Source: an archaeon
GTDB lineage: Archaea; Nanobdellota; Nanobdellia; Woesearchaeales; GW2011-AR9
NCBI GenBank assembly: GCA_018670085.1
Contig: JABHRS010000022.1
Span: forward strand, 3,992-67,991
Direction: 5' to 3'
DNA: 64,000 nt
Notes under the pieces: model-generated
What the model saw: the letters and a program-made list of their open reading frames with translations, nothing else
Database searches by the model: none
Told to the model about the DNA's origin: nothing
Position numbers and translations under genes: made by a program
Shown: one piece after another, positions 44,050-58,874 of the stretch
How positions within the stretch are numbered: position 1 is the stretch's first letter
Layout of the letters: the number at the start of each line of letters is the position of its first letter

Positions 44050-44185
44050 TCTTTAATTCGAAGTTAATCATCCGTTAAATGCAATTATTCCAGTATCTCT
44101 TCATCTCAATTAAGGAATTGTATTATTTTTTTGTATATTTTTATTAGTTTTTTTTGTATATTTTTATCTAATTTTAAAACGAAGG

Positions 44186-44193
44186 TTTATAAA
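44186..44193 (+). promoter_or_regulatory. candidate TATA box of the giant surface protein gene
   Basis: GG-TTTATAAA-G 34 nt upstream of the ATG at 44227. It lies inside the TTG-initiated track ORF, which argues against the 44131 start. Confidence 0.45.
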
Positions 44194-44226
44194 GTTCTCG
44201 ACCATTTATCTATTAGATTTACCGTG

Positions 44227-47200
44227 ATGGTTGGGACAAAAATTATGCCTGAAGCAGATGGTTTTGCTTCTTCAAGTAAAGATTGGTTTGGTTCTTCTAT
44301 TTTCGGATCTAAACTTTTTCAACTATCTTTATTATTTTTAGTTATTTTCTCTCTATTCTCAATATCTGTTTTAGCAGACACCGAAGGATGTTATCTTTTT
44401 ACAGGGGGATCAGAAGACTATCTCTGTCAAGATAATGTTTTAGAAAGTGATGCAGAAGCTGATTGTGATTTATATGGGGCTGATTGCGATTTCGATTCAA
44501 AATTTATTGCAGGAGCGTCCTGTTCTGATTACCCAGAAGTTTGTGAAGAAGTAACATGCTCAGTTGATTGTGATTCACACAGCATTGGAAAATGTGAAGA
44601 TCTTGGTGGAGTTGAAGTAACTGATCCTGAATATGATTTATGGTGCAGCGAAGGTTGTTGCTCAGTTGGAAGTTTTTGTGAGTACGTTGACCTTCGATAT
44701 GATTGTGTTGATCGGGCACTACAACAAGGATATACTGAAAGTGACATTTATATGGAAATTGGAGATACTGATCCAGTGTCTTGTCAGACAGATATTTGTG
44801 GGATCACATTAAGTAGTGGAACCGTTGGAGGATATATTCTAGATGGAACAACTGGACTTGCAATTAGTGGAGCCACTATTGAAATAAGCAGCTCAGTTAG
44901 TGACACAAGTTCTAGCGACGGATATTTCTTTTTTGCAGATGTCACACCTAACAGTTATGTTTTACAAGTCAGTGCATCTGGCTATTCTAGTACCAGTTCG
45001 ACTGTTTCAATTGGATCTGGAGAATCCCTTGAAGTTAATTTTAGTTTGGCTGAAGCAGGAGAAAGTTTCACCATTGGTGGAATAATTCATGATAACACAG
45101 GTTTAGAAGTATCTGATGTGAGTATTTGTTTTGAAAGTTCAGCTGGCGATGAATCATGCACAGTAAGTGATAGCGTTGGAGTTTACGGTGTTTTTGATTT
45201 ACAAGCAAGCGACTATACTATCACAATGACAAAATATGGATACTCCACTACCACTGATTCTCTTTCTGTGTCTGCGGATGCAACTCACAATTTAGTAATT
45301 AATTCAATTGATTTTCAAGGAGTCTCAGGAATAACCTTACTTGATGAAAATGGAAATGGTCTGTATGATTCCTCTACAGAAGATGTGATTTATGGCGCTT
45401 CAATTTATGTTGATGGAGTATACCAAGGTAATTCACAGTATTCAGGTGGAGACTATGAAGTTTATCTTGAGGAGGGAGATTATGTTATCCATGCAACATA
45501 TCAGGATTATGCGAGCGGAGAGTATGATATCGCAGTAACATCAGGGGTAACTGTAGATTTAGATTTATTACTTGAAAAAGAAATTGGTGAATGTAGTTAT
45601 GGTGAAGAAAATGATCAAAAAGCTGTAGAAATATTTGACGGAGTTACAAGTCAAGGAGATCCAGAGATCACACTTAGCTGGGCAAAACCATGTGCAGAAG
45701 TTAGCGGATATATTATTGAAAAAGAAGGAGAAGTATTTGGAGAATCATTTTCTCCACTTGCAATAACAACAGTTGACACAGACGTGGAATGGGGAGAAAC
45801 TTATACTTATTCAATTGTAGCAGTTTATACTGATGGGCCACTTGACGAACCAAGATTTAGTGAAAGTGCAACTGAAGTTACCGTGACTCTTGGAAGTTTT
45901 AACTGTGAAGGGCGAGAAGTTGGTGATACATTTTGTGTAGTTGGCGATACCAGCTCTGGTTCTGACGAAAGAAAATCCGTATATACCTGCAATGAAAATA
46001 ACGATATTTTAGTCAGTAGTGATTGTTCAAGTTTAGATAACGAAGATAGTAGCTTTTTTTGTAGTTCAGCATCTGACAGTTATGCGCTTTGTAAAGACGC
46101 CGGAAGTTGTAGTATATTAGGGCAAGCTGCTGAACCATTTGGCCTTTATTATTCAAGCGAGAGTTGTTATGGCGGTTTAGATAGTTCTGATGGGTATGAA
46201 TCATTTTGTTATTATGATCATGCTGAGTCTAGTATTGTTGATGCATGTTATTCATGTGAAGAAGTTACCAACTGTTTTGATTATATTGGACAGGAAAGTT
46301 GTGAGATTAATAACTGTCTTGGCGTTGGATGTAGTTGGATTGATTCAAGCAATACCAGTTTAGATTATGGAATTACCGGAAGTGAAGGATTTTTAGATTC
46401 AGGATACTTATTTCCTTCAACACTTGAAACAGGACATGGATATTGTGCTCCAGATGAGTATGGAGAAGATGAAGAAACAGGTTTTAATGATTATTGTGGA
46501 CTATGTGGGCCAGAAGCAGATTTATTTGAAAACAGCTATTGCACTGCAGATGTTTGTAGTAATTTAGGTCGATGTTTTGCAGATACTGAATTAACTGCAT
46601 GTGATACATGTGGAGATATTGCAAGTAGCGAAGCAAACTGTTATGCCTACAACTCTGAATTAGAATGTACTGGCGGAGATGCAATTTCAATTACTACAGG
46701 AACTGTAAGCGGCTCAGCAGATAGTTGTTCTTGGAATAAATGTAGTTGGCAAACGCTAAGTACTGATGATGAGTCTGGTGATAGCGCAGTTAATGGCTAT
46801 TGTTACAAAGATGGAAACGCCGACACTATTGATGATTGTTCAGAATTCAGTAGCGGAGAGTATACTGCATGTATCAAAGATGTGTATGCGCCAGTTACAA
46901 GTTTAGATGTAGAATATTTTGCTATTGTTTCAACTACCTTCTCCAATATTACATTTTTGGGAGTTGATGAAGCTAATCCAATGGGGCAATTAGGTTACTG
47001 TTTAGCAAGTAGCGAGACTAGCGATTGTACTGATTTTGAATATGTTGATTATAATGGACTGGAACCGTCTGAAGAATTAATTGTTGATATAGTTGCAAGT
47101 AGTTTTCTAGAATCAAGTGAAATTGATGGAGTCAGTTATGTTCTGAGATATTTCTCCTTGGACAAGTATCTTAACCAAGAATCAGTGCATGAAACAATTG

Positions 47201-50200
47201 TGTTTATTGATAACCATTTACCTGAATATACAGTTGAATGGGAAAGCTCAGTTGACGGCGACATATCTGAACTGATTGTTTATCTTGGTGATTTGAATGA
47301 GGCTATGAGTTGTGACTTTGGCCTTACTGAAGTGTATCCTGCTGGCGACATTTTTGAATCAAGTGTAGGGCGCGATGAAGATAAAGATGCAAGCTTCTCA
47401 GATCTTGATGGAATTATTTACAATTTAACTGTTGCTTGTCGTGATGATTATGGGAACATTGGAGAATACGATGAAGAGATTGTTTTTGATTTAGAACAAG
47501 ATATTACTTTAGTCTACCCAGAGTATGATGGAGTGGTTGCTGAAACTAGTATCGAATTTGCAATTACAACATTAGTCTCAGCTAGTTGCGAATTATACGA
47601 TGTTGAAAGTGGTGCAAAGGTAGCTGATTTTTCAAGTTTGGATGATGCTAACAAAGAACATAAAACAGAACCAGTAGGCGGATTCTATGAAGGAAATTAC
47701 GCAGGAACAGTCAAAGCTGTTTGTGTTGAGTCTTTAGATGGAGATGTTCTTGAAGATTATTTTTATTTTAAGGTAGATTTTACCGCACCAGAAACTCAAA
47801 TAGTTCTAACTGAGGGAGAGAGAACTGAAGAACCAAATGGATTTGGATGGGAAGAATATTTTGTGGAAACTGTTCAAGTCGATTTTAGTTGTGTTGAAGA
47901 TGATGGTTTTACTTGTGCGAATACATATTATTGTTTAGGGGATGGTTGTGAGTACGCAAGCGCCGGAGGGTATATTGAGTATACTGAAAGTGTAGAATTG
48001 GTTGAATCTACTGAAATTTGTTATTACTCAATTGATGAAGCAGGTTCAGTTGGATACCCTGATTGTGGAGAAATATTAATCGAAGGATTTGGAATTATTT
48101 TAGTTAGTCCAACACAATATGTATATGAGGGAGAGACTTGGGGAATAAGTAATATTGCAACATTTGATTGGGAATTAATGACAAAGATTGATACGAATGC
48201 CTGTGCATTTGATTTTAACTCTGGATTTGACATGACTGCACAACCAGAATATAAACAAATTTCGAGTAGTGATGTTGGGGATAATTATTATTTATACAGT
48301 AGTTTTCCAGGTGATGTTCTTGAATCATTTGATAAGGGTGGTAGCATAAAAACATTGTATGTTGCATGTCAAGATTATTTAGGCGAAGTTGGACCTGATC
48401 AAAAAATGAATTTAGAGTATGATCCTAGTGCACCTGAAATAAATGATGCATTCGCTGAACCTGATTCATTGAGTGAAGGAGTTGAAACTTATCTGTTTAC
48501 AACAACCGACGACAAAACTCTTTGTAAATTTAGTGATAATAGCGAAGGAAGTGGAAGTTCAGAATTTGATACAATGGAATATAGTTTTCCTGGATTTGAA
48601 CTAGATGAAGGCAAACAAGAATTATTCATTGACCATGATACTAGCTTCGGATTTAGTTTCTCCGGGGCATCAAAGGATTATTTACTAAATGTTCAATGTA
48701 TGAATGGTGCTGGCGATTTATCTGCGGTTGAAGAAATTGACTTTAGTGTTGATTATTCGATTTCAGGATATATCGCATCAACAAGCCCTAACGGATATAT
48801 TAGTGATACTGATGTGACATTAGAAGTTGTTACAAGCAAAAATGCTGAATGTAGTTATGATGAAATTGTGATGGAATCAACTGGTGGAACTACTCACACT
48901 CAATATTTAGGAGTACTCGAAGAAGGAGAATACCAATATTTGATTGTCTGTAGTATTGAAGGAAGTGATAGAGAAGGGGAAGCTGCATTTATTATTGATT
49001 TAACTGCACCAACTGTAACTGAGGTTGACGACGGAAGTTATTCTTGTAGTTTAGATACTGTATCACTCTTAGTATATTCTGATGAAGATGCAATTAGCAG
49101 TTTCTATTATGAACTATACGAAACAGGAGATGTGGTTGGGGTAGATGAAAATGATAGTACTAATGTTTCAGACCTGGATTCTTCAAGTGGAACATTAATT
49201 TCAAGCGGTTCAATGCCAGCAACAGAAGGGACAAATATTAGTGGACTTAGTTTAGTTGAAAATGGAAGCTATTATTTCTCAGTTTCAGTTACTGATGAAG
49301 CAGGAAATTCTGGCGCTGCATTATCAAGCAACGGATTTGTTGCAGTTCCAAGTGACTCAGTAAATTGTGCTAGTGATGAAGTAGCCCCAGAAATAACAAT
49401 TAGTACTGAAGGTAGTTGTTCTGGAGAAGCTGCAACTATAACTTGTTCTGATGACCTTGGTTGTAGTAGTGTATTGTATGGTTTTGCAAGTGATTCAAGT
49501 TCATGTGTAGCGGATTCAACTTACTATGGTTCTGCAATTAATTTTGAAAGTTCTGGATGGGTGTGTTATATCGCTGAAGATGTGAACGGAAACAATTTAA
49601 CTGGTTCAGTAAAAGTAACTGTTACTGATGATGATGGAGATGGAGTTTTAAACAGTTGTGACGTTTGTAGTTCTACAACTGCGGGTTCTGCGGTTGATTT
49701 GGATGGTTGCGGTTATGGACAAGACCCTGACACTGATGATGGGGATACAACTGACACTGACAATGATGGACTTCCAGATAGTTGGGAAAATTTGTATGAT
49801 GAAATAAGTTGCCCACTAAATTATGCAAATAGTGATAGTGATTCTGATGGTGTGTTAGATACTAATGAAGATTATGATGATGATGGTTATACTAATTATG
49901 AAGAATACCGAGCAGGGTATGATCCTTGCGTGTTTGATGGGAGAACCGTAGATCCAGGTACTGATCCAGATCCAATAATAGATGATGACCCAATTGATCC
50001 AAATGAAGAAAAATCACTTTTAGGATTGGTGTTTTTGTTAGCTGGTTTATTACTAATATCAGGTGGAGCTGGTGGATTGTATTATGCTTATGCTAAAGAC
50101 CCTAACGGGAAAGCTGCAGTTGCACAATTTTTTGGTGCAGGAGTTGGATCTCTTGGTGGACAAATAGCCACTACCAATGGATATAGGAGACCTACTAGAA

Positions 50201-50628
50201 GTAGAAGAAGTTCTAGGCAAATTAATACTGGTGAACTGCAAGGGCAACCAGCTAAAAATTCTTGGATGCAAAATTTGAGAAGTAGCGTTGCTGGGCTTGG
50301 AAGAGCGAAACAAAAAAAATCAAGGAGAAAAGAACGAAGTGGAATCTTTGCTGGATTTAGTTCAAGAACTCAGGGATTTCCTCATTTTGATGATGTACTC
50401 GGATCCCGTAAAAAACCAATGGCAAAATTAGGAGATTTAACTTCAAGGTATGCTGAACATAAAGAAACTGTGAATAAAGGATTAAAATCACACGAGAAAG
50501 ATCTGTTCGCCAAGTTAGATACTATCACTGAGCGAGCAAAAACACATCCTTTAACTGAAGTGTCTTCACCTAAAGAAGCAAAAGATATTTTCAAAAAATT
50601 AAAAGAATTAAGTGATAAGAGGAAGTGA
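44227..50628 (+). CDS. giant (~2130 aa) Cys-rich acidic surface protein with C-terminal TM anchor and basic cytoplasmic tail
   Basis: Signal peptide LFQLSLLFLVIFSLFSISVLA-DTEG. Three carboxypeptidase-regulatory-like beta-sandwich repeats (~44812-45580), an FN3-like module (~45660-45840), then long Cys/Asp/Glu/Ser-rich regions. Thrombospondin-type-3-like Ca-binding repeats (DDDGDGVLNSCD, DTDNDGLPDSWE, DSDSDGVLDTNEDYDDDGYTNYEEY; ~49615-49930). TM LLGLVFLLAGLLLISGGAGGLYYAY (~50014-50094) and a ~175-aa Lys/Arg-rich tail. Confidence 0.85.
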   Translation: MVGTKIMPEADGFASSSKDWFGSSIFGSKLFQLSLLFLVIFSLFSISVLADTEGCYLFTGGSEDYLCQDNVLESDAEADCDLYGADCDFDSKFIAGASCSDYPEVCEEVTCSVDCDSHSIGKCEDLGGVEVTDPEYDLWCSEGCCSVGSFCEYVDLRYDCVDRALQQGYTESDIYMEIGDTDPVSCQTDICGITLSSGTVGGYILDGTTGLAISGATIEISSSVSDTSSSDGYFFFADVTPNSYVLQVSASGYSSTSSTVSIGSGESLEVNFSLAEAGESFTIGGIIHDNTGLEVSDVSICFESSAGDESCTVSDSVGVYGVFDLQASDYTITMTKYGYSTTTDSLSVSADATHNLVINSIDFQGVSGITLLDENGNGLYDSSTEDVIYGASIYVDGVYQGNSQYSGGDYEVYLEEGDYVIHATYQDYASGEYDIAVTSGVTVDLDLLLEKEIGECSYGEENDQKAVEIFDGVTSQGDPEITLSWAKPCAEVSGYIIEKEGEVFGESFSPLAITTVDTDVEWGETYTYSIVAVYTDGPLDEPRFSESATEVTVTLGSFNCEGREVGDTFCVVGDTSSGSDERKSVYTCNENNDILVSSDCSSLDNEDSSFFCSSASDSYALCKDAGSCSILGQAAEPFGLYYSSESCYGGLDSSDGYESFCYYDHAESSIVDACYSCEEVTNCFDYIGQESCEINNCLGVGCSWIDSSNTSLDYGITGSEGFLDSGYLFPSTLETGHGYCAPDEYGEDEETGFNDYCGLCGPEADLFENSYCTADVCSNLGRCFADTELTACDTCGDIASSEANCYAYNSELECTGGDAISITTGTVSGSADSCSWNKCSWQTLSTDDESGDSAVNGYCYKDGNADTIDDCSEFSSGEYTACIKDVYAPVTSLDVEYFAIVSTTFSNITFLGVDEANPMGQLGYCLASSETSDCTDFEYVDYNGLEPSEELIVDIVASSFLESSEIDGVSYVLRYFSLDKYLNQESVHETIVFIDNHLPEYTVEWESSVDGDISELIVYLGDLNEAMSCDFGLTEVYPAGDIFESSVGRDEDKDASFSDLDGIIYNLTVACRDDYGNIGEYDEEIVFDLEQDITLVYPEYDGVVAETSIEFAITTLVSASCELYDVESGAKVADFSSLDDANKEHKTEPVGGFYEGNYAGTVKAVCVESLDGDVLEDYFYFKVDFTAPETQIVLTEGERTEEPNGFGWEEYFVETVQVDFSCVEDDGFTCANTYYCLGDGCEYASAGGYIEYTESVELVESTEICYYSIDEAGSVGYPDCGEILIEGFGIILVSPTQYVYEGETWGISNIATFDWELMTKIDTNACAFDFNSGFDMTAQPEYKQISSSDVGDNYYLYSSFPGDVLESFDKGGSIKTLYVACQDYLGEVGPDQKMNLEYDPSAPEINDAFAEPDSLSEGVETYLFTTTDDKTLCKFSDNSEGSGSSEFDTMEYSFPGFELDEGKQELFIDHDTSFGFSFSGASKDYLLNVQCMNGAGDLSAVEEIDFSVDYSISGYIASTSPNGYISDTDVTLEVVTSKNAECSYDEIVMESTGGTTHTQYLGVLEEGEYQYLIVCSIEGSDREGEAAFIIDLTAPTVTEVDDGSYSCSLDTVSLLVYSDEDAISSFYYELYETGDVVGVDENDSTNVSDLDSSSGTLISSGSMPATEGTNISGLSLVENGSYYFSVSVTDEAGNSGAALSSNGFVAVPSDSVNCASDEVAPEITISTEGSCSGEAATITCSDDLGCSSVLYGFASDSSSCVADSTYYGSAINFESSGWVCYIAEDVNGNNLTGSVKVTVTDDDGDGVLNSCDVCSSTTAGSAVDLDGCGYGQDPDTDDGDTTDTDNDGLPDSWENLYDEISCPLNYANSDSDSDGVLDTNEDYDDDGYTNYEEYRAGYDPCVFDGRTVDPGTDPDPIIDDDPIDPNEEKSLLGLVFLLAGLLLISGGAGGLYYAYAKDPNGKAAVAQFFGAGVGSLGGQIATTNGYRRPTRSRRSSRQINTGELQGQPAKNSWMQNLRSSVAGLGRAKQKKSRRKERSGIFAGFSSRTQGFPHFDDVLGSRKKPMAKLGDLTSRYAEHKETVNKGLKSHEKDLFAKLDTITERAKTHPLTEVSSPKEAKDIFKKLKELSDKRK

Positions 50629-50630
50629 GG

Positions 50631-51194
50631 ATGGGATCACGAAAAAAAGCAGTGAAAAAACAAGGTTTTTTGAGCATTTTTCCAAAAGGGAAAAAGGGGA
50701 TGGGTATTGGTCAAGTATTTGCATTTATCGTTGCAGGACTCACTTTCGCATTTGTTTTAATTTTTGGATATGGAGCAATAGCTGATTTTTTAGATAAAGG
50801 GGAAACTGTTGAATTTTTACAGTTTAAAAATGAACTTGAAAGTAGCATTAAACAAATTGCCTCAGAATATGGGTCAGTTAGACAAACAACATTTTATCTT
50901 CCAGGAAATTATGAAGAAGTGTGTTTTATTGATTTGGATGAGCCCTACGATTCTTCGAGCGAGCTTTGTAGTCAGAACATTATTGCGTGTGATGTTTGGG
51001 AAACAGCATCTGAAGAAGGTGGATACACTGCAGCTGATGAAAATGTTTTTCTGGAACCTGCAGCACCGGTTGCAATTAAAGTTTATACTATTGATTTAGA
51101 TGAAGAATACCTCTGTGTCCCAGTTCAAGGGGGAAGATTCACTTTGAGGTTAGAAGGAAAAGGTTCAAGAACATATGTTACTGAGGGGTCTTAA
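50631..51194 (+). CDS. class III signal peptide (type IV pilin-like) protein
   Basis: The ATG at 50631 is preceded by GTGAGG and overlaps the giant gene stop region. N-terminus KKQGFLSIFPKGKKG-MGIGQVFAFIVAGLTFAFVLIFGYG. Confidence 0.6.
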   Translation: MGSRKKAVKKQGFLSIFPKGKKGMGIGQVFAFIVAGLTFAFVLIFGYGAIADFLDKGETVEFLQFKNELESSIKQIASEYGSVRQTTFYLPGNYEEVCFIDLDEPYDSSSELCSQNIIACDVWETASEEGGYTAADENVFLEPAAPVAIKVYTIDLDEEYLCVPVQGGRFTLRLEGKGSRTYVTEGS

Positions 51195-51285
51195 TTTTTT
51201 TAGGATAAACGATGACGAAGCATAGTTAATTATTAATTTTTGAATGTATTATTTTTAATTTAATAATTTTGATTTAAAAAAGAAG

Positions 51286-52419
51286 ATGGCAAATAAAAGA
51301 GGACAGTTAACACTTAGTTTTAATTGGATATTCGTTTTAATTGCAGGAACAATGATTTTACTATTTTTTGTTGGAATTATTATGAAACAAAAAACTGTAT
51401 CAGAACAAAAATTAAATTTTGATGTGGTAACAGTAATGGATTCAATATTAACAGGATCAACTGTTTCCGAACAAACCATAAATTTTGTTGATATCAGTGG
51501 CCTTTCAGGATTTGAATTATTTTTTGATTGCGAGCTTGACGATGGGGGCGGGTATGAAGATATATTTGCGCAATATGGAATCACAGGCACAACTGCAAGT
51601 AGCGAATTACCAATGCAAGTTTTATTCGCACCCAAAACAATGGAAGGAAATGAAATGATCACATGGAGTTTACCTTACAAAATGCCGTTCAAAGTAATGG
51701 ACTTATTAATGGTAACTTCAACTTCAATCAAATATTATGTAATTGGAGGAAAAGGTTCGGACTTTAGGCACGATTTGGAAAATGCAACCAGTGGGTTTAC
51801 AATAGAATTTATCTCCGATATTTCTGAAATTTCTGCAGTTGGAAACTTGTTCCATGTGAGGGTGATTGATTTAGATGGATCCACTTTAGTTGATGGCGCA
51901 GGAGTTCCAGAGGAATTAGCTAACGCAGGAGTTGGGGTTGTAACTGGAGTTTTAGTCGGATCAACACTTGGGCAAGTAGATTATTTTACAGCTAGCGGCG
52001 ATAAATGGAATAGACTAACTGGTGCTGGATCAGTTCCGATAATTGCAACAGGCCTCTTTGAAAAAGAAGCTTCTCTTTATGGTGCATTATTTGCAGCAGA
52101 CGATGAAGTGTATAAATGCAATATGATGAAGGCATTTAAGAGATATTCAATTTTAGTAGAAATATATCAAAATAAGCTTGATTCGCTCAGCGCGTATCAT
52201 GCATTGGATGGGCCTGGTGCTTCCAAAACATCTTGTAAGGGATTTTTATCGGATACAACTGGGAATAATATGGAAGACACTTTGAGCTCATTATCTGGAG
52301 AATTAAGCACTTGTATCGAACATGGATATGATGACTGTTTGCAAGTAGAACCACTTGCAAATCAACTGCATGAATTAAATGCTAACTTAAGAGCAGACAC
52401 TTGCGAGAGGTTGTATTAG
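51286..52419 (+). CDS. class III signal peptide (type IV pilin-like) protein, 377 aa
   Basis: MANKRG-QLTLSFNWIFVLIAGTMILLFFVG, then a large globular domain with a C-terminal Cys cluster. Confidence 0.7.
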   Translation: MANKRGQLTLSFNWIFVLIAGTMILLFFVGIIMKQKTVSEQKLNFDVVTVMDSILTGSTVSEQTINFVDISGLSGFELFFDCELDDGGGYEDIFAQYGITGTTASSELPMQVLFAPKTMEGNEMITWSLPYKMPFKVMDLLMVTSTSIKYYVIGGKGSDFRHDLENATSGFTIEFISDISEISAVGNLFHVRVIDLDGSTLVDGAGVPEELANAGVGVVTGVLVGSTLGQVDYFTASGDKWNRLTGAGSVPIIATGLFEKEASLYGALFAADDEVYKCNMMKAFKRYSILVEIYQNKLDSLSAYHALDGPGASKTSCKGFLSDTTGNNMEDTLSSLSGELSTCIEHGYDDCLQVEPLANQLHELNANLRADTCERLY

Positions 52420-52459
52420 TTGTGTGTGGTGTATGTATTAAAATTAATAGGTAATAATA

Positions 52460-53026
52460 ATGAAAAAGATGAATAAAAAAGCACAAATGCAAATGCTGGA
52501 AACCATTGGGGTAATTTTCATTTTTTTCGTATTAATCCTGTTTGGATCAATTTTTTATTTTAAATTTCAAGAGATAAGTTTTCAGAATAAACAAGAAGAG
52601 TTACTTGCGCAATCTGCTATGGACACTACATTAGTAACATTATTTCTCCCAGAAATTCAATGTAGTAGAGGAGATTCTGAAGCCGAAGATAACTGTATTG
52701 ATTTAGGGAAAGTTAGGGCACTGCAACAAGTGCTGAAGGAAAATCCCAAATATTTGACGGATTATTATTTTAACCTTTTCAGTTATGCAAATATATCTGT
52801 GACAATGGTGCATCCTGTTGAACATTCATGGACAATTTATGAATTTGAAAAAGTAGGAGTTTACGATAATGGGTCTGAGTATTCTGCTTGGGATAGGAAG
52901 GAAGCCACATATTTTGTGGTTACTCTTCGCGATGAGTTGAAAGGAATAGGAGAAAATAATGAGGAATTTTACAATAAAGAAATTGTATACGGGTTTGGTT
53001 ATCTGACAGTTGAGGTGTTTAGTTAA
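52460..53026 (+). CDS. class III signal peptide (type IV pilin-like) protein
   Basis: MKKMNKKA-QMQMLETIGVIFIFFVLILFG (Glu at +7). The stop overlaps the next start (TAATG). Confidence 0.7.
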   Translation: MKKMNKKAQMQMLETIGVIFIFFVLILFGSIFYFKFQEISFQNKQEELLAQSAMDTTLVTLFLPEIQCSRGDSEAEDNCIDLGKVRALQQVLKENPKYLTDYYFNLFSYANISVTMVHPVEHSWTIYEFEKVGVYDNGSEYSAWDRKEATYFVVTLRDELKGIGENNEEFYNKEIVYGFGYLTVEVFS

Positions 53027-53604
53027 TGTTAACTTACAAAACAAAGCTGATTTTCGGGTATAAAATTTCTAAAAAAGCACAAGCAGAAATGATTGGTCTT
53101 GTAGTGATTGTGATCATGATAACCCTTGGAATGCTGTTTTTAGCAAAGTTTGCACTTCAAGAGGAACCAGCTAAAAAAATTTTTACTCGCAAAGGGCTTG
53201 CATATAGCACAATGAGTGCAGTAATGAAAACTGAACTTGAATGTATAGAACCATTTGATGTGGATACTCAAGAATTAGAAGTACAAGATATATTACTTGA
53301 AGATTGTGCCAAATACAAAAAACCAAACTCTGGTGGGAGTAGTGATTATCCTTGTAATGGGTATTCGAATAGTTGTGATTTTTTGGAAGCAGAGCTTACT
53401 GAGCTTTTGAGCAAAACATTAGGTGTTTGGCAAAAAGATTATGTCTTTTCTTCAATTATTGTTGATGGCACTACAGAAAAAGAATTAGTTTTAGTTGACA
53501 GTGGTGGGTGTGGATATTCATCTGAGAGAGATAGCAGTGGATTATTTCCAATATATGTTAGTGACGTTGGCTTAGTTGAAAGTGTTTTATATATCTGCGA
53601 GTAA
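53026..53604 (+). CDS. class III signal peptide (type IV pilin-like) protein
   Basis: ...ISKKA-QAEMIGLVVIVIMITLGMLFLA (Glu at +3). Confidence 0.7.
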   Translation: MLTYKTKLIFGYKISKKAQAEMIGLVVIVIMITLGMLFLAKFALQEEPAKKIFTRKGLAYSTMSAVMKTELECIEPFDVDTQELEVQDILLEDCAKYKKPNSGGSSDYPCNGYSNSCDFLEAELTELLSKTLGVWQKDYVFSSIIVDGTTEKELVLVDSGGCGYSSERDSSGLFPIYVSDVGLVESVLYICE

Positions 53605-53735
53605 AAATAGATTATTTTTTTCTTCTCTTCCCCGTAACGTTTATATACGTTAAAGCATTGTTTCTCTTGTATATTTGTATTAACAAAAGTATAAATTATA
53701 ATCTAATATTTGATATTAAATCTGAGGTGGAATAA

Positions 53736-54155
53736 ATGGATCTTATAAAAAAAATATTAAACTCAAAAAAAAGTCTAAACAGCTCTTTGGTGCCAGCTGA
53801 TAAAAAGGGACAAGGGCTTTCTTTAACAGTAATAATTGTAGCAGCACTTGCATTAATTGTACTAGTTGTGTTAGTATTGATCTTCACTGGAAGAATGGCA
53901 ATTTTTACTGACGGCCTTGGAGAATCAGGCGCAGCTGAACTTACAAAATACAAAATCACTTATGGTGATTGTCATCCAACTAGTACTCAAGAAACAGTTT
54001 TCTTGAGTGATATGAAACAAGCTGCAAATGATAAATCAAACACTGCAGAATTAGAAATCTCCGCACAAGAAGATTTTGAAGATGTGATTGATGATTGCCG
54101 TGCAGCAGGTCTCGATGAGAATTCATGTGAGTTTGCAGGTTGTGATTGGAATTAA
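53736..54155 (+). CDS. class III signal peptide (type IV pilin-like) protein, small, Cys-containing
   Basis: ...ADKKG-QGLSLTVIIVAALALIVLVVLVLIF. The ectodomain has 4 Cys (GDCHP...DDCRAAG...NSCEFAGCDWN). Confidence 0.7.
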   Translation: MDLIKKILNSKKSLNSSLVPADKKGQGLSLTVIIVAALALIVLVVLVLIFTGRMAIFTDGLGESGAAELTKYKITYGDCHPTSTQETVFLSDMKQAANDKSNTAELEISAQEDFEDVIDDCRAAGLDENSCEFAGCDWN

Positions 54156-54212
54156 TTTATTTTTTTAATCATTTTTTAATTATTTTTTCAATTTTGAATT
54201 ATAGAGGATACA

Positions 54213-54494
54213 ATGAATATTAGAAAAATTAGTCGTAAGGGGCAGTCAAACATGTTTTGGATTATTATCGGAGCTGTGATTGCACTCGTTGTAATGATCG
54301 TATTACTATTACTTTTTACAAGTAAAACCAAAATCCTTGAAGGAGGAGTTTCTGGATGCGAAGGAAAAAGTGGAGAATGCGTTGATCCAGATATTGGATG
54401 TGGCTCTGGAACACTAGAAGCCCCATTTGAGTGCAGTAATCCATCATATACATGTTGTTTAGGATTTGGTAATGACGACGATAGTTTATCATAA
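54213..54494 (+). CDS. mini pilin-like protein, Cys-rich (93 aa)
   Basis: MNIRKISRKG-QSNMFWIIIGAVIALVVMIVLLLLF. The ectodomain has 7 Cys in ~45 aa. Confidence 0.7.
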   Translation: MNIRKISRKGQSNMFWIIIGAVIALVVMIVLLLLFTSKTKILEGGVSGCEGKSGECVDPDIGCGSGTLEAPFECSNPSYTCCLGFGNDDDSLS

Positions 54495-54508
54495 TTGTAG
54501 GTTTGAAT

Positions 54509-54628
54509 ATGTCAAAGAAAGGAGTCAGTAATGCAACCATGGCACTTATAGTCTCAATACTATTGTTATTGATTATTTTTGGCTTTTTTATGTTGAAGTT
54601 AAAGGGAATTGGATCAACGTTTGGTTGA
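54509..54628 (+). CDS. 39-aa pilin-like micro-ORF (not in ORF track)
   Basis: Hand translation: MSKKG-VSNATMALIVSILLLLIIFGFFMLKLKGIGSTFG-stop. Same KKG plus hydrophobic helix design; 14 nt after the previous stop. Confidence 0.45.
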   Translation: MSKKGVSNATMALIVSILLLLIIFGFFMLKLKGIGSTFG

Positions 54629-54664
54629 TTTTATTTATATTGATTATTTTGGTGAATGGTAAGG

Positions 54665-54826
54665 ATGGATAAAATGAGATTATTTTCTGGACGCAAAGGT
54701 GCTGAGATGTGGCAGCTGGTTTTGATTATTATTAGTATTATCATATTAATATTTTTGATGATTTTTTATGGACAAGTCGATGATAAAATTGGTGGCGTAT
54801 TTGAAAAATTCTTTGGGTGGCTATAA
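54665..54826 (+). CDS. 53-aa pilin-like micro-ORF (not in ORF track)
   Basis: Hand translation: MDKMRLFSGRKG-AEMWQLVLIIISIIILIFLMIFYGQVDDKIGGVFEKFFGWL-stop. The stop lies 3 nt before the next ATG. Confidence 0.45.
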   Translation: MDKMRLFSGRKGAEMWQLVLIIISIIILIFLMIFYGQVDDKIGGVFEKFFGWL

Positions 54827-54829
54827 AAA

Positions 54830-55678
54830 ATGGGATTTAGTTTACCATTAAATAAAATTGTAACATATGTGATCATAGCGTTCGCGTTGATATTCACAGT
54901 TTTGTGGTTAATTGATCCTGATGGAGGAGTCTTATCAGGGTTAAAAGAGATCGTTATTGAAGACTTAGATGCAGGATTTGGAGTAGAAGAAGTGCTAGCG
55001 GACGAAGTTAGTATTTCAGCTGAGCATAAAAAAGAAATTGATTCTATGAGTGCAGCGTTTAAATCTATGTTAAGAGATGAATTAGCAGATAATTGTTTTC
55101 ACCATTTTAGTGGATTTACTTCGTTTGACAATCAAATAGAAATTATTATGGTTGAAGTTGGCGAAGACGTATCGGTTGAAATTAAAGGAGGCCCTGAAGC
55201 AAAGCAAGTATATGATAGGTATACAATTGAAGATATGGGCCTTTGTGTAGTTCAAGGAGATAATGGAGAAGATTCAAACTTTTATCATCGGTTTTTGAAA
55301 GATGATACCCTTGACCCAATTTTGTATCAAAACGAAGTGCCCTTTGATGTTACTGGACCGTACTTCAAAGAAGTTTCATCATTAATTATTTCATTTGATT
55401 CACCCTGGTTAGATGTCAATAAGAACAGGATTAATTTTGGAGAAGGTTATGTTGATTTTGATGGGGATGACTGGTTATTTTCTCCAGATAATAAAAATAT
55501 CTGCTTCTTTCCTACAACCCGTGGTGGGAATGTTTGTCAGGCAGGCACACAAACAGGTGGATTTATTGACAACGATTGTTTTGAAGATAAAAGTGGAGAC
55601 CTTTCATCAATTGTTGATGAAAGATATAAAACCACAATTCCATACAGAAGTCAACATGGATCGTTAAATAGTTGTTGA
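54830..55678 (+). CDS. N-terminally anchored extracellular protein in the pilin-like cluster
   Basis: MGFSLPLNKIVTYVIIAFALIFTVLWL. It has a hydrophobic N-terminal helix but no basic leader (an in-frame stop lies immediately upstream). 282 aa, several Cys. Confidence 0.65.
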   Translation: MGFSLPLNKIVTYVIIAFALIFTVLWLIDPDGGVLSGLKEIVIEDLDAGFGVEEVLADEVSISAEHKKEIDSMSAAFKSMLRDELADNCFHHFSGFTSFDNQIEIIMVEVGEDVSVEIKGGPEAKQVYDRYTIEDMGLCVVQGDNGEDSNFYHRFLKDDTLDPILYQNEVPFDVTGPYFKEVSSLIISFDSPWLDVNKNRINFGEGYVDFDGDDWLFSPDNKNICFFPTTRGGNVCQAGTQTGGFIDNDCFEDKSGDLSSIVDERYKTTIPYRSQHGSLNSC

Positions 55679-55712
55679 GTGAGTAGTAGATGATAATTTG
55701 AAAAAAGAGAAG

Positions 55713-56705
55713 ATGAAAATGAAATCTAATAAAAAAGCAGAGAAAAAACGTGGTCTTTTGAGCTATTTACCACAAGGGAAAAAAGCGATTGGAAACGCAG
55801 TAGTAATCTCTTTGATATTGACCTTATTATCCTTTGGACTTTTAGCAATAACGATTTCAAAAGCGATAGCCGAAGGAGATGATTTGGCGCTTGAAACTGC
55901 TTGTCGTCAAAGTATTAATATTCGCGCATCAACTGTACTTTGGGCAAAAAGTACATTTCTTGAAAAAGAAGCACAATTAAATTTGGTGCCGCCACTATGT
56001 ACAACAATCGATAAACGCTTGGAAGGAAGCAAAGAAGAAGTGATTGAAGAAATAGCAGATTTGTCTGCTAGATGTTGGTGGATGTTTGCAGAAGGAAGAT
56101 ATGATGAAATTCTGTCTGGTAATGAAGATAAAATTGGACAAATGATGGGAATGACCAAAGGAGAAAATGATTGTTTTATCTGTTATTCATTGCTGATGGA
56201 CGAAGATGATTTTGAGGGAGAAACAAGTATTCCTGGAAATGAGATCATGGATTTCATGTTTGAAAATGAATACGGAAAAGTAGGAGAAGGTGTAACCTAT
56301 TTTGATTATATACAAGAGTTTGGTGGTCCAGGGAGGTTCTACAGTTTAGCAACTTCAGAAAATGGGTCTGGGATAAATTCGGCAATTGAAGCTCGTAATG
56401 CTTATGCGATTGTATTTGCTGCAAAAAATTCAAAATTACCTCAGGATGACGATGTATTTCTTGGTATCGGCGCTGCAAAAATTGCAGTTGGACTTGGAGG
56501 CGCATTAGTTCTTGGCCTGGCAACAGGAGGGGTTGGATGGGTTACAGTTGGAGCACTTGGTGTTGCAACTTTAGTTACAGCATCAGGATATTCTAATGTT
56601 AAGGCGGTTTTGTATGATGGTGATAGGGACGTTAGTTCAATATATCTAGATAATTTACGTGAAGCACAAGCACATTGTCATGAAGGAGACTTAGGTGGAA
56701 ATTAA
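55713..56705 (+). CDS. class III signal peptide-like protein with additional C-terminal Gly-zipper membrane region
   Basis: The track ORF starts at TTG 55698; the first ATG is at 55713. N-terminus KKRGLLSYLPQGKKA-IGNAVVISLILTLLSFGLLAI is paralogous to the 50631 gene leader. C-terminal LGIGAAKIAVGLGGALVLGLATGGVGWVTVGALGVATLV. Confidence 0.6.
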   Translation: MKMKSNKKAEKKRGLLSYLPQGKKAIGNAVVISLILTLLSFGLLAITISKAIAEGDDLALETACRQSINIRASTVLWAKSTFLEKEAQLNLVPPLCTTIDKRLEGSKEEVIEEIADLSARCWWMFAEGRYDEILSGNEDKIGQMMGMTKGENDCFICYSLLMDEDDFEGETSIPGNEIMDFMFENEYGKVGEGVTYFDYIQEFGGPGRFYSLATSENGSGINSAIEARNAYAIVFAAKNSKLPQDDDVFLGIGAAKIAVGLGGALVLGLATGGVGWVTVGALGVATLVTASGYSNVKAVLYDGDRDVSSIYLDNLREAQAHCHEGDLGGN

Positions 56706-56706
56706 G

Positions 56707-57057
56707 ATGGCAGTTTACAAACTCAATAAAAATAAAAGACAAGAAAAAAGCTTAGTTAATTTTTTTAAGCGACCTTCTAAGAAGGCACAATCACAAATGT
56801 TTTGGATATTAATGGTTGCAATTATTGCAATCATTGCTGCAACCTTTATCATTCTCTGGTTTAGAAATAGTGGTGGTGCAGCTTTTGGAAGTTTAGATAC
56901 TACTATTGATAAATTCGGAGATTGTGATAATGATGATATAGCTAATTATTTTGATGATTGTCCATGTGAAGTTGGAGTTGCCGAGTTTGATGGGTGCGCG
57001 GATGCTAACAAAGTGGATGAATGCACGGAAGATCAGATAAAAAAATGCGCAGAGTAA
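56707..57057 (+). CDS. mini pilin-like protein, Cys-rich (116 aa)
   Basis: The ATG at 56707 is preceded by GGTGG. ...RPSKKA-QSQMFWILMVAIIAIIAATFIILWF (QSxMFWI shared with the 54213 gene). The acidic ectodomain has 6 Cys. Confidence 0.7.
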   Translation: MAVYKLNKNKRQEKSLVNFFKRPSKKAQSQMFWILMVAIIAIIAATFIILWFRNSGGAAFGSLDTTIDKFGDCDNDDIANYFDDCPCEVGVAEFDGCADANKVDECTEDQIKKCAE

Positions 57058-57082
57058 GTTAACTTATTTTTTGGTGAATTTA

Positions 57083-57913
57083 ATGGTAGGGATCTCAAGT
57101 AAGAAAAAAGGACAAATCATGACAGCGTTTTTGGTTAAAATGATTCTTGCACTTATGCTTCTTCTTGCTTCAACTGCGATGATTGGGTCAATATTTTCAA
57201 TTTTATTGGATCAGTCAGGAGAAAATTTTGCTGATTTTACTAGTGATTTGGAATTTGTAGGCATGCACGATCCAGGTTACAAATTAAGTAGTTTGTTAAT
57301 TTTAGATGAAGGGTCAGCATTAGTTTATTTTGAAGGAGAAGATTCAGTGACATTAAGATCTGACTATCTGGTTGAAGTAGATTCTTTTGGTGAGCAACTT
57401 GGGTCTAATAATTTTGAATTTTTAAGACCTGGTGGATGTTCTGAATTCTCAAGTGAAGGTTGTATCTGTTTATACCAAAATATCATCACAGAAATTGTAG
57501 ACACAGAACGAAAATCAAGCGCATTAGCGTTATTTGTAGGCGAAGCAGAATTTCACACTTATTATTCTGCAACTTCCTCTTCAATTAGATGCAGTGCTAG
57601 CGATGTTGGTTCAATGTCAATTACAAGTTGTAATTTAGGAACCGCTAACGAAAAAACAAAGAGTATTGAACAAAGCTGTGAAAATGGTTTTGTGATTGAA
57701 AGAAATATTTTGGGTTCAGATGTAGCAACCATGTTATTTAATGAAAGAAGGAGATCAGTTTTTTTAGAATCTAATGACAATGGATTATATGTTGAAGCAC
57801 AGAACGCATATAATGGCCCATCTCCATTGGATGCAAAAGAGATTGACGCTGAAGAATCCCTTCCTGAAGAAGTACAAGATTTGTACGCAGAAGCTTCATG
57901 GGGAGGACCTTAA
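57083..57913 (+). CDS. class III signal peptide (type IV pilin-like) protein
   Basis: MVGISSKKKG-QIMTAFLVKMILALMLLLAS. The KKGQI start closely resembles Methanococcus-type pilin leaders. Confidence 0.7.
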   Translation: MVGISSKKKGQIMTAFLVKMILALMLLLASTAMIGSIFSILLDQSGENFADFTSDLEFVGMHDPGYKLSSLLILDEGSALVYFEGEDSVTLRSDYLVEVDSFGEQLGSNNFEFLRPGGCSEFSSEGCICLYQNIITEIVDTERKSSALALFVGEAEFHTYYSATSSSIRCSASDVGSMSITSCNLGTANEKTKSIEQSCENGFVIERNILGSDVATMLFNERRRSVFLESNDNGLYVEAQNAYNGPSPLDAKEIDAEESLPEEVQDLYAEASWGGP

Positions 57914-57915
57914 TT

Positions 57916-58347
57916 ATGACATTTAGGGGAAGTCTATTTTTATCAAAAAAAGCACAACTAGGAATTGTTTTCTTAATGGGGGCTTTAGCATTACTTGCTA
58001 TTGTAAGTTTGATTTTTTCGATAGCACAAAAAACTGGAGATTCTGAAGAAGTTGTGAAAGCAGTATTTGCTGAAGAAGTAAGGCTTGCTTTGAATTCTTT
58101 GATCAGTGTGCCAGGCGATGGGTTAATTCAGTTACCGCAAAATGAAGACTATAACATTACTGAGTTTACTGTTTCATTGCATAATGGATATGTAGAAGTC
58201 TGCAGTAGTTGTGAAATAGATTATTTCACTGCAAGAAAAGGTTTCCATTTGCCGGAAGATTATGAAGCAAGAGGAACAGTTAAAGAACAAGAAATTATCT
58301 GTTTGGTGAAAGATGCTAAAGTTTTACGGTTAGAGGACTGCGATTAA
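57916..58347 (+). CDS. class III signal peptide (type IV pilin-like) protein
   Basis: The ATG at 57916 is preceded by GGAGG. MTFRGSLFLSKKA-QLGIVFLMGALALLAIVSLIFS. Confidence 0.7.
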   Translation: MTFRGSLFLSKKAQLGIVFLMGALALLAIVSLIFSIAQKTGDSEEVVKAVFAEEVRLALNSLISVPGDGLIQLPQNEDYNITEFTVSLHNGYVEVCSSCEIDYFTARKGFHLPEDYEARGTVKEQEIICLVKDAKVLRLEDCD

Positions 58348-58348
58348 G

Positions 58349-58855: not shown

Positions 58856-58874
58856 TTAAAATTCAACTGATACA

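What the first reader, a model, noticed from the sequence alone, without database searches (positions are those of the whole stretch)
44227..50628. Giant protein architecture: beta-sandwich repeats, long Cys-rich acidic core, TSP3-like calcium repeats, TM anchor and a basic cytoplasmic tail
Seen in sequence: a cleavable-looking signal, three CarboxypepD_reg-like repeats (for example GTVGGYILDGTTGLAISGATIEIS...YVLQVSASGYSS), and an FN3-like unit (PEITLSWAKPCAEVSGYIIEKEGE...YTYSIVAVY). More than 1000 aa follow that are rich in Cys, Asp, Glu, Ser and Tyr, with many CxxC and C-x-n-C spacings. Then come D-x-D-x-D-G repeats (DDDGDGV, DTDNDGLPDSWE, DSDSDGVLD, DDDGYTNYEEY), one TM helix, and a ~175-aa Lys/Arg/Ser-rich tail (RRPTRSRRSSRQ...KQKKSRRKERS) ending in a helical KE-rich segment. 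A type I topology with a sizeable cytoplasmic tail is unusual for archaeal adhesin or S-layer-like proteins. It suggests coupling of the ectodomain to something intracellular. The dense Cys content implies extracellular disulfides or metal sites.
Basis: partly seen in the sequence, partly recalled or inferred. Interest (0 to 1): 0.6.

Follow-up and report, generated by a model that had tools for sequence, protein, structure and literature searches.

The report
Giant anchored surface stalk of Woesearchaeota
This is an intact 2133-residue, disulfide-rich surface protein of a tiny uncultured DPANN (Woesearchaeota-type) archaeon, held in the membrane by one helix with a conserved 180-residue tail inside the cell, and it heads a conserved operon of pilin-like genes, so it is probably the anchored stalk of an undescribed cell-contact structure.

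Summary
The gene is real and intact: 44227-50628, 2133 aa. One correction: the Cys-dense parts are only residues 52-195 and 556-885. Residues 886-1800 are nine ~100-aa repeat modules with mostly two conserved Cys each.

New here:
- The tail's last 123 aa are conserved and occur only at the C-terminus of this protein family (107 representatives among 1.84 billion proteins).
- The tail carries two to four copies of a phi-F-x-x-phi motif, which also recurs in more distant relatives.
- The N-terminal 16-Cys tip gives a very confident model (pLDDT 95) with no match in the PDB.
- The protein is single-copy and present in 8 of 8 sampled genomes of its GTDB family, with domain number and length fixed.
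- In other families of the order it is split into a secreted N-part and an anchored C-part.
- It always precedes the same series of class-III-signal (pilin-like) genes.

Function is inferred, not shown. The scan had already met this operon type on other DNA. The closest published concept is the large C-terminally anchored accessory proteins of archaeal type IV pilus loci (Makarova 2016).

The parts
44227..44379 (+). N-terminal signal region (aa 1-51): weakly charged n-region, ~21-aa hydrophobic core, VLA|DTEGCY cleavage-like site
   Evidence: Kyte-Doolittle peak at 23-55. Homologs align at 'A..GCY' directly after the hydrophobic core. No signal-peptide predictor was available.
44380..44811 (+). 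Membrane-distal tip domain (aa 52-195): 16 Cys, alpha/beta, family-specific
44812..45591 (+). Three CarboxypepD_reg / PEGA-type beta-sandwich domains (aa 196-455)
   Evidence: PF13620 E 3.8e-23 with 3 stretches. hhalign probabilities between them 97-99%. PDB profile hit to NOMO2 at E 8.5e-20.
45592..45891 (+). FN3-like domain (aa 456-555)
   Evidence: fn3 hits in 13/22 homologs, best E 2.6e-6. Family profile hits FN3 chains in the PDB at E 0.003. Below threshold in this protein itself.
45892..46881 (+). Cys-rich core (aa 556-885): 30 Cys, all kept in at least 90% of homologs, two weakly related halves
   Evidence: hhalign cysA versus cysB gives 41% probability. AF2 pLDDT 74. No PDB fold match, best E 2.7. 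No Pfam or NCBIfam hit in this protein, and no Pfam hit to this region in any of 22 homologs.
46882..49626 (+). Nine ~80-125-aa repeat modules D1-D9 (aa 886-1800), mostly with one conserved Cys pair. Boundaries often read 'xTAPxxT'. The fusion joint to the separately encoded C-part lies near aa 1290-1300 (nt ~48094-48126).
   Evidence: hhalign: D3~D7 96.7%, D6~D7 93.5%, D4~D9 94.1%, D1~D4 63%. Weak Big_13 and titin-Ig hits. Big_13, Big_3_3, Big_1 and SdrD_B hits in homologs. Module lengths nearly fixed across 37 homologs. Split forms.
49627..49941 (+). TSP3-type calcium-binding repeats (aa 1801-1905), DxDxDGxxD, three to four units
   Evidence: Invariant D1801/1803/1805/1812, D1843/1845/1847, D1882/1884/1886. 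TSP3_bac 15.2 bits here and 3/22 homologs hit. tblastn matches to TSP3-like repeat regions of Verrucomicrobiota and others.
49942..50016 (+). Variable acidic, Pro-rich juxtamembrane stalk (aa 1906-1930)
   Evidence: 12% mean identity; length 18-118 aa among homologs.
50017..50091 (+). Single TM helix (aa 1931-1955) with conserved G-x5-GG-x-G-phi-L-x-Y-x-Y pattern
   Evidence: Kyte-Doolittle peak at 1928-1953. No indels in 37 homologs. L1951 invariant; G1940, G1949, Y1953 and Y1955 near-invariant.
50092..50256 (+). Variable basic Gly/Ser/Arg/Pro-rich cytoplasmic linker (aa 1956-2010)
   Evidence: 11% mean identity; length 20-65 aa; net +7.
50257..50625 (+). Conserved cytoplasmic tail module (aa 2011-2133) with three phi-F-x-x-phi motifs (IFAGF, LFAKL, IFKKL), ending in SDKRK (homolog consensus SKKRK)
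   Evidence: Exclusive to this family: 107 hits in 1.84e9 representatives, all at the extreme C-terminus. The only hit in the own genome. Motif 16-fold enriched over the ectodomain. No Pfam or PDB sequence match.
50625..60728 (+). Co-directional, partly overlapping cluster of ~14-16 small genes, most with class-III (type IV pilin-like) N-termini. This is context, not part of the protein.
   Evidence: no family hits. Ten of the genome's 41 class-III-like ORFs lie here. Collinear orthologs follow the giant gene in L001, L002, L003 and L116-L119.

Best explanation
The gene encodes the membrane-anchored stalk subunit of a lineage-specific surface apparatus of Woesearchaeota-type DPANN archaea. It is built together with the pilin-like proteins encoded directly downstream.

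Shown:
- It is an intact type-I-style protein. A signal region is followed by about sixteen extracellular modules. In order these are the Cys-knotted tip, 3 CarboxypepD_reg domains, an FN3-like unit, the two-part Cys core, nine repeat modules and TSP3 calcium repeats. Then come one TM helix and a 180-aa basic tail.
- Every module is fixed in number and almost fixed in length across homologs down to 28% identity.
- Nearly all 80 Cys are conserved.
- The gene is single-copy and present in every sampled genome of its GTDB family.
- The tail module occurs in no other protein.
- The downstream pilin-like genes are collinear orthologs in distant relatives.
- In other families of the order the same protein is split. 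A secreted N-part comes first, then a ~930-1225-aa C-part that carries the TSP3 repeats, the TM helix and a motif-bearing tail.

Inferred:
- The ectodomain is a disulfide- and calcium-stiffened rod tens of nanometres long.
- The rod presents the tip domain for contact with another cell or surface.
- The C-part is the anchor that holds the distal part, covalently here through the fusion.
- The tail's repeated amphipathic phi-F-x-x-phi helices fasten the anchor on the cytoplasmic side. They would do so by binding a partner or by lying on the inner membrane leaflet, so that the single TM helix can bear load.
- The pilin-like proteins are processed by the genome's A24 prepilin peptidase.
- They are assembled by the T2SSE-family ATPase encoded elsewhere, into a short filament or pseudopilus that works with the stalk.
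For: - Intact ORF and domain calls.
- 37-sequence alignment with invariant Cys, Asp triads, TM glycines and tail Phe/Leu.
- Fixed module lengths.
- Internal repeat homology.
- Tail exclusive to the family and always C-terminal.
- Tail profile in 8/8 genomes of the own family and 15/401 of the order, one copy each.
- Tip domain in 8/8 genomes of the own family.
- Longest tail among 22 type-I-like ORFs of the genome.
- Operon synteny and orthology.
- Class-III-like N-termini concentrated in the cluster (10 of the genome's 41).
- Split N-part and C-part followed by the same pilin series in four other families.
- Tail motif kept in the split forms, including a high-GC genome.
- Prepilin peptidase and T2SSE ATPase present elsewhere in the 94%-complete genome.
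- Published precedent: large C-terminally anchored, Cys-conserving accessory proteins are predicted in archaeal T4P loci (PMC4858521, read).
Against:
- No cytoplasmic partner is encoded in the operon. Every operon product has an N-terminal hydrophobic segment.
- PF00482 (platform protein) was not detected in the genome.
- The pilus ATPase is on another contig with no obvious pilus neighbours.
- Physical association of the giant with the pilin-like proteins rests on gene order alone.
- The pilin-like assignment rests on N-terminal motifs alone; no pilin family model matched.
- The rod shape and its length are inferred from domain types, not modelled.
- A beta-sandwich fold is directly supported only for the CarboxypepD_reg and FN3 domains and one or two D modules.
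Confidence: 0.55

Rival explanations
1. It is the lineage's main S-layer or cell-envelope protein. It would form a lattice or canopy anchored by its C-terminal helix, and the neighbouring pilin-like genes would be only loosely related. The tail would simply be a basic 'foot' on the inner leaflet.
For: - Signal region, long acidic array of beta-sandwich modules, juxtamembrane stalk and C-terminal TM match the general plan of archaeal S-layer glycoproteins (established knowledge).
- Single copy and universal in its family.
- Makarova et al. label comparable proteins 'S-layer-like'.
- The tail motifs are amphipathic and basic, as membrane-binding helices are.
Against: - Strict collinear linkage to the pilin-like series across families, often with overlapping stop and start codons.
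- It is split into secreted and anchored subunits in most of the order.
- There is no PGF-CTERM-type sorting signal, and the 180-aa tail is far longer than in the genome's other anchored proteins.
- The full architecture is found in only ~4% of sampled genomes of the order.
- There is no evidence of lattice contacts.
Confidence: 0.2
2. It is a pilus-borne tip adhesin, analogous to PilY1 of Pseudomonas, carried outward by the minor-pilin-like proteins of the operon.
For: - It is a large non-pilin protein encoded at the head of a pilin-like operon, with calcium-binding repeats. This resembles the fimU-pilVWXY1Y2E logic (established knowledge; Makarova 2016).
- Many homologs start with 'KKRG' followed by a ~20-aa hydrophobic stretch, resembling the neighbours' class-III motif.
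Against: - A conserved C-terminal TM helix and a conserved cytoplasmic tail tie it to the membrane.
- This protein and its closest relatives lack the KKRG motif and have an AxA-like cleavage site instead.
- It was not picked up by the class-III scan.
- No PilY1 or DUF2341 domain was found by Pfam in any of 22 members.
Confidence: 0.1
3. The tail is a signalling or force-transmitting adaptor. It would bind a specific cytoplasmic protein, such as the pilus ATPase or a cytoskeletal or division protein, so that contact made by the ectodomain is reported inside the cell in an integrin-like way.
For: - Residue-level conservation extends beyond the amphipathic pattern: the IPH block, the Y-x-EHK-x-EIKPGL block and an invariant spacing of three motifs.
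- The module is exclusive to this family.
- The motif is multivalent and kept order-wide.
Against: - No partner was identified.
- The MIT/ESCRT-III idea was tested and failed: neither family is in the genome.
- There is no match to any solved structure or family.
- The linker between the TM helix and the module is variable in length and sequence.
Confidence: 0.15

Closest known systems
Large accessory proteins predicted in archaeal type IV pilus loci, especially the Pyrobaculum-Thermoproteus systems (Makarova, Koonin & Albers 2016, PMC4858521)
   Same: There are two large proteins per locus. One is secreted and the other has a C-terminal TM ('S-layer-like'). They are encoded with several small class-III-signal proteins, and almost all components carry conserved cysteines. 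The split form seen in G016, G066, G087 and G119 has exactly this layout.
   Different: That survey does not mention Woesearchaeota or DPANN. No sequence relationship was tested here. In this window the two large proteins are fused into one. The anchored part carries a long conserved cytoplasmic tail with a repeated motif. The loci lie away from the ATPase. All of it remains prediction in both cases.
PilY1 with the minor pilins (fimU-pilVWXY1Y2E) of Pseudomonas aeruginosa type IVa pili
   Same: A large calcium-binding non-pilin protein is co-encoded with a set of low-abundance pilin-like proteins (established knowledge).
   Different: PilY1 has no membrane anchor or cytoplasmic tail and sits on the pilus tip. 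No PilY1 or DUF2341 domain was detected here. The system is bacterial and its machinery is encoded nearby.
NOMO (Nodal modulator, BOS complex) of eukaryotic ER
   Same: A type I membrane protein whose lumenal or extracellular part is a rod of CarboxypepD_reg / transthyretin-like beta-sandwiches. It is the best PDB sequence hit (9c7v_B, E 8.5e-20).
   Different: The similarity is limited to the three CarboxypepD_reg domains. NOMO has no Cys-rich tip or core, no TSP3 repeats and only a short tail. Its cellular context is unrelated.
Haloarchaeal S-layer glycoprotein (for example Haloferax volcanii SLG)
   Same: Signal peptide, acidic Ig-like array, juxtamembrane stalk and C-terminal hydrophobic anchor (established knowledge).
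   Different: SLG has a PGF-CTERM signal processed by archaeosortase and is lipid-anchored, with no long tail. Here there is no PGF motif and the tail is a conserved 180 aa. SLG is not operonic with pilin-like genes.

Membership tests
CarboxypepD_reg (PF13620) domain-containing protein | Match to the PF13620 model above the gathering score | tested here: met
   82.1 bits against a cut-off of 32.3, with three stretches. 22/22 homologs hit.
Fibronectin type III (PF00041) | Match to the fn3 model | tested here: inconclusive
   No fn3 hit at E<=1 in this protein. 13/22 homologs hit at E<=0.01, best 2.6e-6. The family profile hits FN3 chains in the PDB at E ~0.003.
Bacterial TSP3 calcium-binding repeats (PF18884) | DxDxDGxxDxxE-type repeat matching the model, with conserved Asp ligands | tested here: inconclusive
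   15.2 bits against a cut-off of 25 in this protein. 3/22 homologs hit. Asp triads are invariant in 37 homologs. tblastn hits bacterial TSP3-like regions. Calcium binding is not testable here.
Archaeal type IV pilin / class III signal peptide protein | [KR]-[GA] cleavage motif directly before the N-terminal hydrophobic helix, and no other membrane anchor | tested here: not met
   This protein was not picked up by the class-III scan. It has a C-terminal TM helix. Many more distant homologs do have KKRG before the hydrophobic stretch, which remains unexplained.
PilY1-type pilus tip adhesin | PilY1 beta-propeller or DUF2341 domain; no membrane anchor | tested here: not met
   No such Pfam hit in any of 22 members. 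TM helix and tail are conserved.
PGF-CTERM / archaeosortase-sorted S-layer glycoprotein | PGF (or similar) tripeptide, then a TM helix, then a short basic tail at the extreme C-terminus | tested here: not met
   The sequence before the TM helix is PIDPNEEKSLLGL, with no PGF. The tail is 180 aa. Archaeosortase presence was not tested.
Large C-terminally anchored 'S-layer-like' accessory protein of archaeal T4P loci (Makarova 2016) | Large secreted protein with a C-terminal TM helix and conserved Cys, encoded in an operon with class-III-signal proteins | tested here: met
   Description read. This is a descriptive class, not a sequence family. Homology to the Thermoproteales proteins was not tested.
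ESCRT-III-type MIM motif bearer (idea for the tail) | A MIT-domain partner (Vps4/CdvC) and Snf7-family proteins in the genome | tested here: not met
   PF04212 and PF03357 were not found in the 94%-complete genome, while the Sulfolobus control was hit.

The most novel reading that the evidence does not exclude
The giant protein and its pilin-like partners would form a previously unseen archaeal cell-to-cell contact organelle. A rigid stalk of tens of nanometres presents a new-fold, eight-disulfide tip to the host cell. The family-exclusive cytoplasmic tail, through its repeated phi-F-x-x-phi helices, would recruit a specific intracellular partner. Binding outside would then be coupled to events inside the symbiont, making it an integrin-like transmembrane link in a DPANN archaeon.
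Probability: 0.15. Interest if true: 0.8.

Novelty: new variant of a known kind. Interest (0 to 1): 0.5.

Why it matters
DPANN archaea are thought to live attached to other cells, yet for Woesearchaeota no attachment structure has been seen and none of these genes has an annotation. This protein gives several concrete handles:
- It is a single-copy marker, universal within its GTDB family, with fixed architecture.
- Its tip domain (144 aa, 16 Cys) is predicted with high confidence and has no counterpart in the PDB. It could be expressed and solved.
- Its cytoplasmic module has a simple repeated motif that can be tested for membrane or partner binding.
- The natural fused and split versions indicate which parts must work together.

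If the tail does bind an intracellular partner, it would be a rare prokaryotic example of a surface fibre wired to the cell interior. If it does not, the protein is still the best candidate for the anchored component of the Woesearchaeal contact apparatus.

Tried and rejected
1. Pfam, NCBIfam and PDB sequence searches gave nothing for the tip, the Cys core or the tail.
3. I considered the tail as an ESCRT-III-like MIM helix. It was rejected because no MIT or Snf7 family is in the genome.
4. I considered the giant as a giant pilin. Homologs have a 'KKRG' N-terminus, but this protein lacks it and has a C-terminal anchor.
5. The search for related loci on genome contigs returned mostly bacterial TSP3-repeat noise and only five true relatives. 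The genome search was used instead.
6. The neighbourhood of the genome's T2SSE ATPase on contig C9 showed no pilus genes or obvious partner.
7. Three literature searches found no paper on this protein family.
9. Model coordinates are not exposed, so disulfide pairing in the AF2 models could not be checked.

Full report
**What is in the sequence**

A single open frame runs 44131..50628 on the + strand. The ATG at 44227 gives a 2133-aa product. A TTTATAAA box lies 33 nt upstream of that ATG (sequence). By my reading of archaeal promoter spacing, this fits a short-leader transcript starting just before 44227.

The window is archaeal. It encodes PolD DP2, Cdc6/Orc1, MCM and aIF5B, and its GC content is about 33%. 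Named homologs come from 'Candidatus Woesearchaeota' or 'Nanoarchaeota' MAGs. The genome held for the window is 1.48 Mb in 37 contigs and 94% complete.

- *CarboxypepD_reg.* Pfam confirms three stretches (E 3.8e-23).
- *Hydrophobic segments.* Kyte-Doolittle analysis finds exactly two, at residues ~23-55 and 1928-1953.
- *Charge.* The ectodomain is strongly acidic, with net charge -9 to -31 per module. The 180-aa tail is +22 and has no Cys.
- *D-x-D-x-D-G repeats.* They lie at 1801-1905, and their Asp triads are invariant in 37 homologs. The TSP3_bac model is sub-threshold here (15.2 against 25 bits) and hits 3 of 22 homologs. tblastn picked up TSP3-like repeat regions in many bacteria.
- *FN3-like unit.* It is not detected in this protein alone. 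fn3 hits 13 of 22 homologs, and the family profile hits FN3 chains in the PDB at E ~0.003.

**The one correction**

The Cys-dense sequence is not '>1000 aa'.

Residues 886-1800 are nine modules of 81-126 aa. Seven have one conserved Cys pair; D4 has six Cys and D9 five. Profile-profile comparison shows two recurring module types:
- D3~D7 at 96.7% and D6~D7 at 93.5%.
- D4~D9 at 94.1% and D1~D4 at 63%.

Weak Big_13 and titin-Ig matches and the Big_* and SdrD_B hits in homologs make a beta-sandwich fold likely but not proven for all nine.

**Conservation**

More than 50 clusters of full-length homologs exist, 1979-2183 aa long, 27-68% identical and mostly covering ~98% of the query.

In a 37-sequence alignment 56 of the 80 Cys are invariant, and 74 are kept in at least 90% of the sequences. 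Every module keeps its number and nearly its length; the TM region, for example, is 25-25 aa and D2 is 96-101 aa. Only the signal region, the juxtamembrane stalk and the post-TM linker vary freely.

This is unlike repeat-number-variable adhesins and suggests a structure of defined geometry. The exact protein is on record from 9 contigs up to 216 kb, so 'interrupted in better assemblies' is refuted.

**The tail**

After the TM helix comes a variable basic Gly/Ser/Arg/Pro linker of 20-65 aa at 11% identity. The TM helix itself has the pattern G-x5-GG-x-G-phi-L-x-Y-x-Y, with L1951 invariant.

A conserved 123-aa module follows the linker. Its consensus reads ...R..lFg.F.k.S..IPH....L..K...L.KL..LA..Y.EHK.EIKPGL...EK..F.KLE.IAK..K.K.I..VV.K.EAKDIF.KLK..SKKRK. 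F2041, F2044, F2094, L2097 and L2125 are invariant.

Evidence that the module belongs to this family alone:
- A profile of this module, searched without any word filter against 1.84 billion representative proteins, found 107 hits. All lie at the extreme C-terminus.
- The complete hits are nearly all 1979-2288 aa, with one of 3268 aa. The short ones I inspected are N-truncated fragments of the same protein.
- In the own genome the only hit is this gene.
- There is no Pfam or PDB sequence match.

A short motif, phi-F-x-x-phi (IFAGF, LFAKL and IFKKL in this protein), occurs 2-4 times in every one of the 37 tails. It is 16-fold denser there than in the ectodomains.

Within the genome, a crude scan found 22 ORFs with an N-terminal hydrophobic segment plus one C-terminal TM. 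Among them this protein has the longest tail. Sixteen have 0-18 aa, including another 2166-aa giant with 15 aa.

**The unknown domains**

AF2 was run with the 37-sequence alignment.
- *Core (aa 545-900).* The model has pLDDT 74 and also no PDB match (best E 2.7).

No AlphaFold-DB-type library was available, so 'no known fold' is relative to solved structures only.

**Distribution**

- With the tail profile, 15 of 401 sampled genomes of the GTDB order have a match at E<=1e-5. These include 8 of 8 genomes (eight genera) of the window's own family. Each match is a single copy, and it lies at the end of a ~2000-2170-aa frame wherever the contig allows.
- The tip domain is found in the same 8 of 8 genomes and in none of 393 others.
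- With the whole protein, 37 of 201 genomes match at 1e-20. Most share only residues ~470-1290 or ~1300-1900, inside other proteins.

**Fusion**

In G016, a complete one-contig genome of another family, the locus reads as follows:
- a 1872-aa secreted protein with a signal, a Cys-rich N-terminus, CarboxypepD_reg, FN3, a homologous Cys core and Ig-like modules, but no TM helix;
- overlapping it by 4 nt, a 929-aa protein with its own signal, D5-D9-like modules, TSP3 repeats, a TM helix and a +32 tail with four phi-F-x-x-phi motifs;
- then the same pilin-like series of 185, 351, 159, 155... aa.

G066 (high GC), G087 and G119 show the same split layout, with 3-5 motif copies in the tail.

The window's protein therefore corresponds to the N-part plus the C-part joined near aa 1290-1300. 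The split state is spread over many families and the fused state over few. Fusion is thus the more economical direction, but no rooted tree was made.

**Context**

- The giant gene's stop overlaps the next start. About 14-16 small genes follow on the same strand, up to 60728. None has a Pfam or NCBIfam match.
- Most of them begin with K/R-K-G/A, often followed by Q, and then a ~20-aa hydrophobic helix. That is the archaeal class III (prepilin) design.
- A simple FlaFind-like rule hits 41 of 5007 ORFs in the genome, and 10 of these lie in this 10-kb stretch.
- Twelve of 14 downstream proteins have collinear orthologs behind the giant gene in at least two of the three loci whose giants are 51%, 39% and 31% identical. 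Nine have one in all three. The first four are as conserved as the giant itself, at 37-55% identity.
- The genome has an A24 prepilin peptidase and one T2SSE-family ATPase on other contigs. PF00482 was not detected. The ATPase neighbourhood holds no pilus genes.

**How it most likely works**

*Shown:* the architecture, the topology indicators, the conservation, the exclusivity of the tail, the fusion/split relationship and the linkage to pilin-like genes.

*Inferred:*
- The roughly sixteen extracellular modules form a rod stiffened by disulfides and by calcium at its base. Its length of tens of nanometres is my estimate from typical Ig-like domain lengths.
- The rod presents the family-specific tip for contact.
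- The C-part is the anchor subunit.
- The tail's multivalent amphipathic helices secure the anchor on the cytoplasmic face, either on a partner or on the inner leaflet.
- The pilin-like proteins are processed and assembled in trans by the peptidase and ATPase into a structure that cooperates with the stalk.

I put this at about 0.55. The rivals are a plain S-layer protein (0.2), a specific signalling or adaptor tail (0.15, which is a refinement rather than a contradiction) and a pilus-tip adhesin (0.1).

**Comparison with what is known**

The nearest published description is the prediction by Makarova, Koonin and Albers (2016, PMC4858521). They state that some archaeal T4P loci, notably in Pyrobaculum-Thermoproteus, encode two large proteins, one with a C-terminal TM ('S-layer-like') and one secreted, together with small pilin-like proteins. 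Almost all of these have conserved cysteines. That paper does not mention Woesearchaeota or DPANN. Three literature searches found nothing on this family.

PilY1, NOMO and haloarchaeal S-layer glycoproteins share single features only (see Closest known systems and Membership tests).

I classify the finding as a new variant of a known (predicted) kind.

The scan has met this operon type before on other DNA (e1-3244020, e1-1174889, e1-900739 and others). What this report adds is:
- the dissection of the tail;
- its exclusivity and its order-wide motif;
- the confident tip model with no PDB match;
- the corrected domain map.

**Limits**

- No signal-peptide or TM predictor was available.
- The pilin-like assignment rests on N-terminal motifs.
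- The genome tallies are samples of related genomes and are not independent.

Noticed in passing
homologs P0015-P0055 (N-termini): About 25 of 37 homologs begin M..[KQ]KRG followed by a ~20-aa hydrophobic stretch and then 'A..GCY'. The strictly kept KKRG resembles the class III motif of the neighbouring pilin-like genes. The window's protein and its closest relatives lack it. It is unclear whether some family members are processed by the prepilin peptidase.
   Followed up: partly
G000:C20:22958-29461 (-), outside the window: The genome has a second giant type-I-like ORF of 2166 aa, almost the same length, but with only a 15-aa tail after its C-terminal TM helix. Its relationship to this protein was not examined.
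   Followed up: no
P0153 (233 aa): This weak tail-profile hit (E 1.9e-4) looks like a stand-alone small protein: one TM helix (...GGGAFYLFY) plus a tail with four or five phi-F-x-x-L motifs and no ectodomain. It may be an anchor-only version or a fragment.
   Followed up: no
window 55698-56705: This 335-aa cluster member has a pilin-like N-terminus and also a C-terminal Gly-rich hydrophobic stretch (IGAAKIAVGLGGALVLGLATGGVGWVTVGALGVATLV). The Gly-rich stretch resembles the conserved Gly pattern in the giant's TM helix. Orthologs are kept in L001-L003.
   Followed up: partly
L003 20280-21953: In the most distant locus examined, a 557-aa Lcl_C-domain gene is inserted into the pilin-like series between otherwise collinear genes.
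   Followed up: no
window 41755-41875: Rfam finds a 121-nt tRNA (40.2 bits) that ARAGORN missed.
   Followed up: no
window 38582-40318 (-): A single 578-aa ORF combines RNA 3'-terminal phosphate cyclase (RTC, E 7.9e-74) with a C-terminal NUDIX domain (E 3.9e-13).
   Followed up: no
window 4447-7161: A DNA gyrase A subunit (E 2.2e-164) sits in this DPANN archaeal genome next to typical archaeal replication genes.
   Followed up: no
L001 4857-9929; L002 400-9085; L003 385-9064: In relatives the giant gene is preceded by further large unannotated genes (1690 aa; 1805 and 1047 aa; 600, 647, 900 aa). In the window it is preceded by an amino-acid permease and a UbiA prenyltransferase, so the upstream side of the locus is not conserved.
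   Followed up: no
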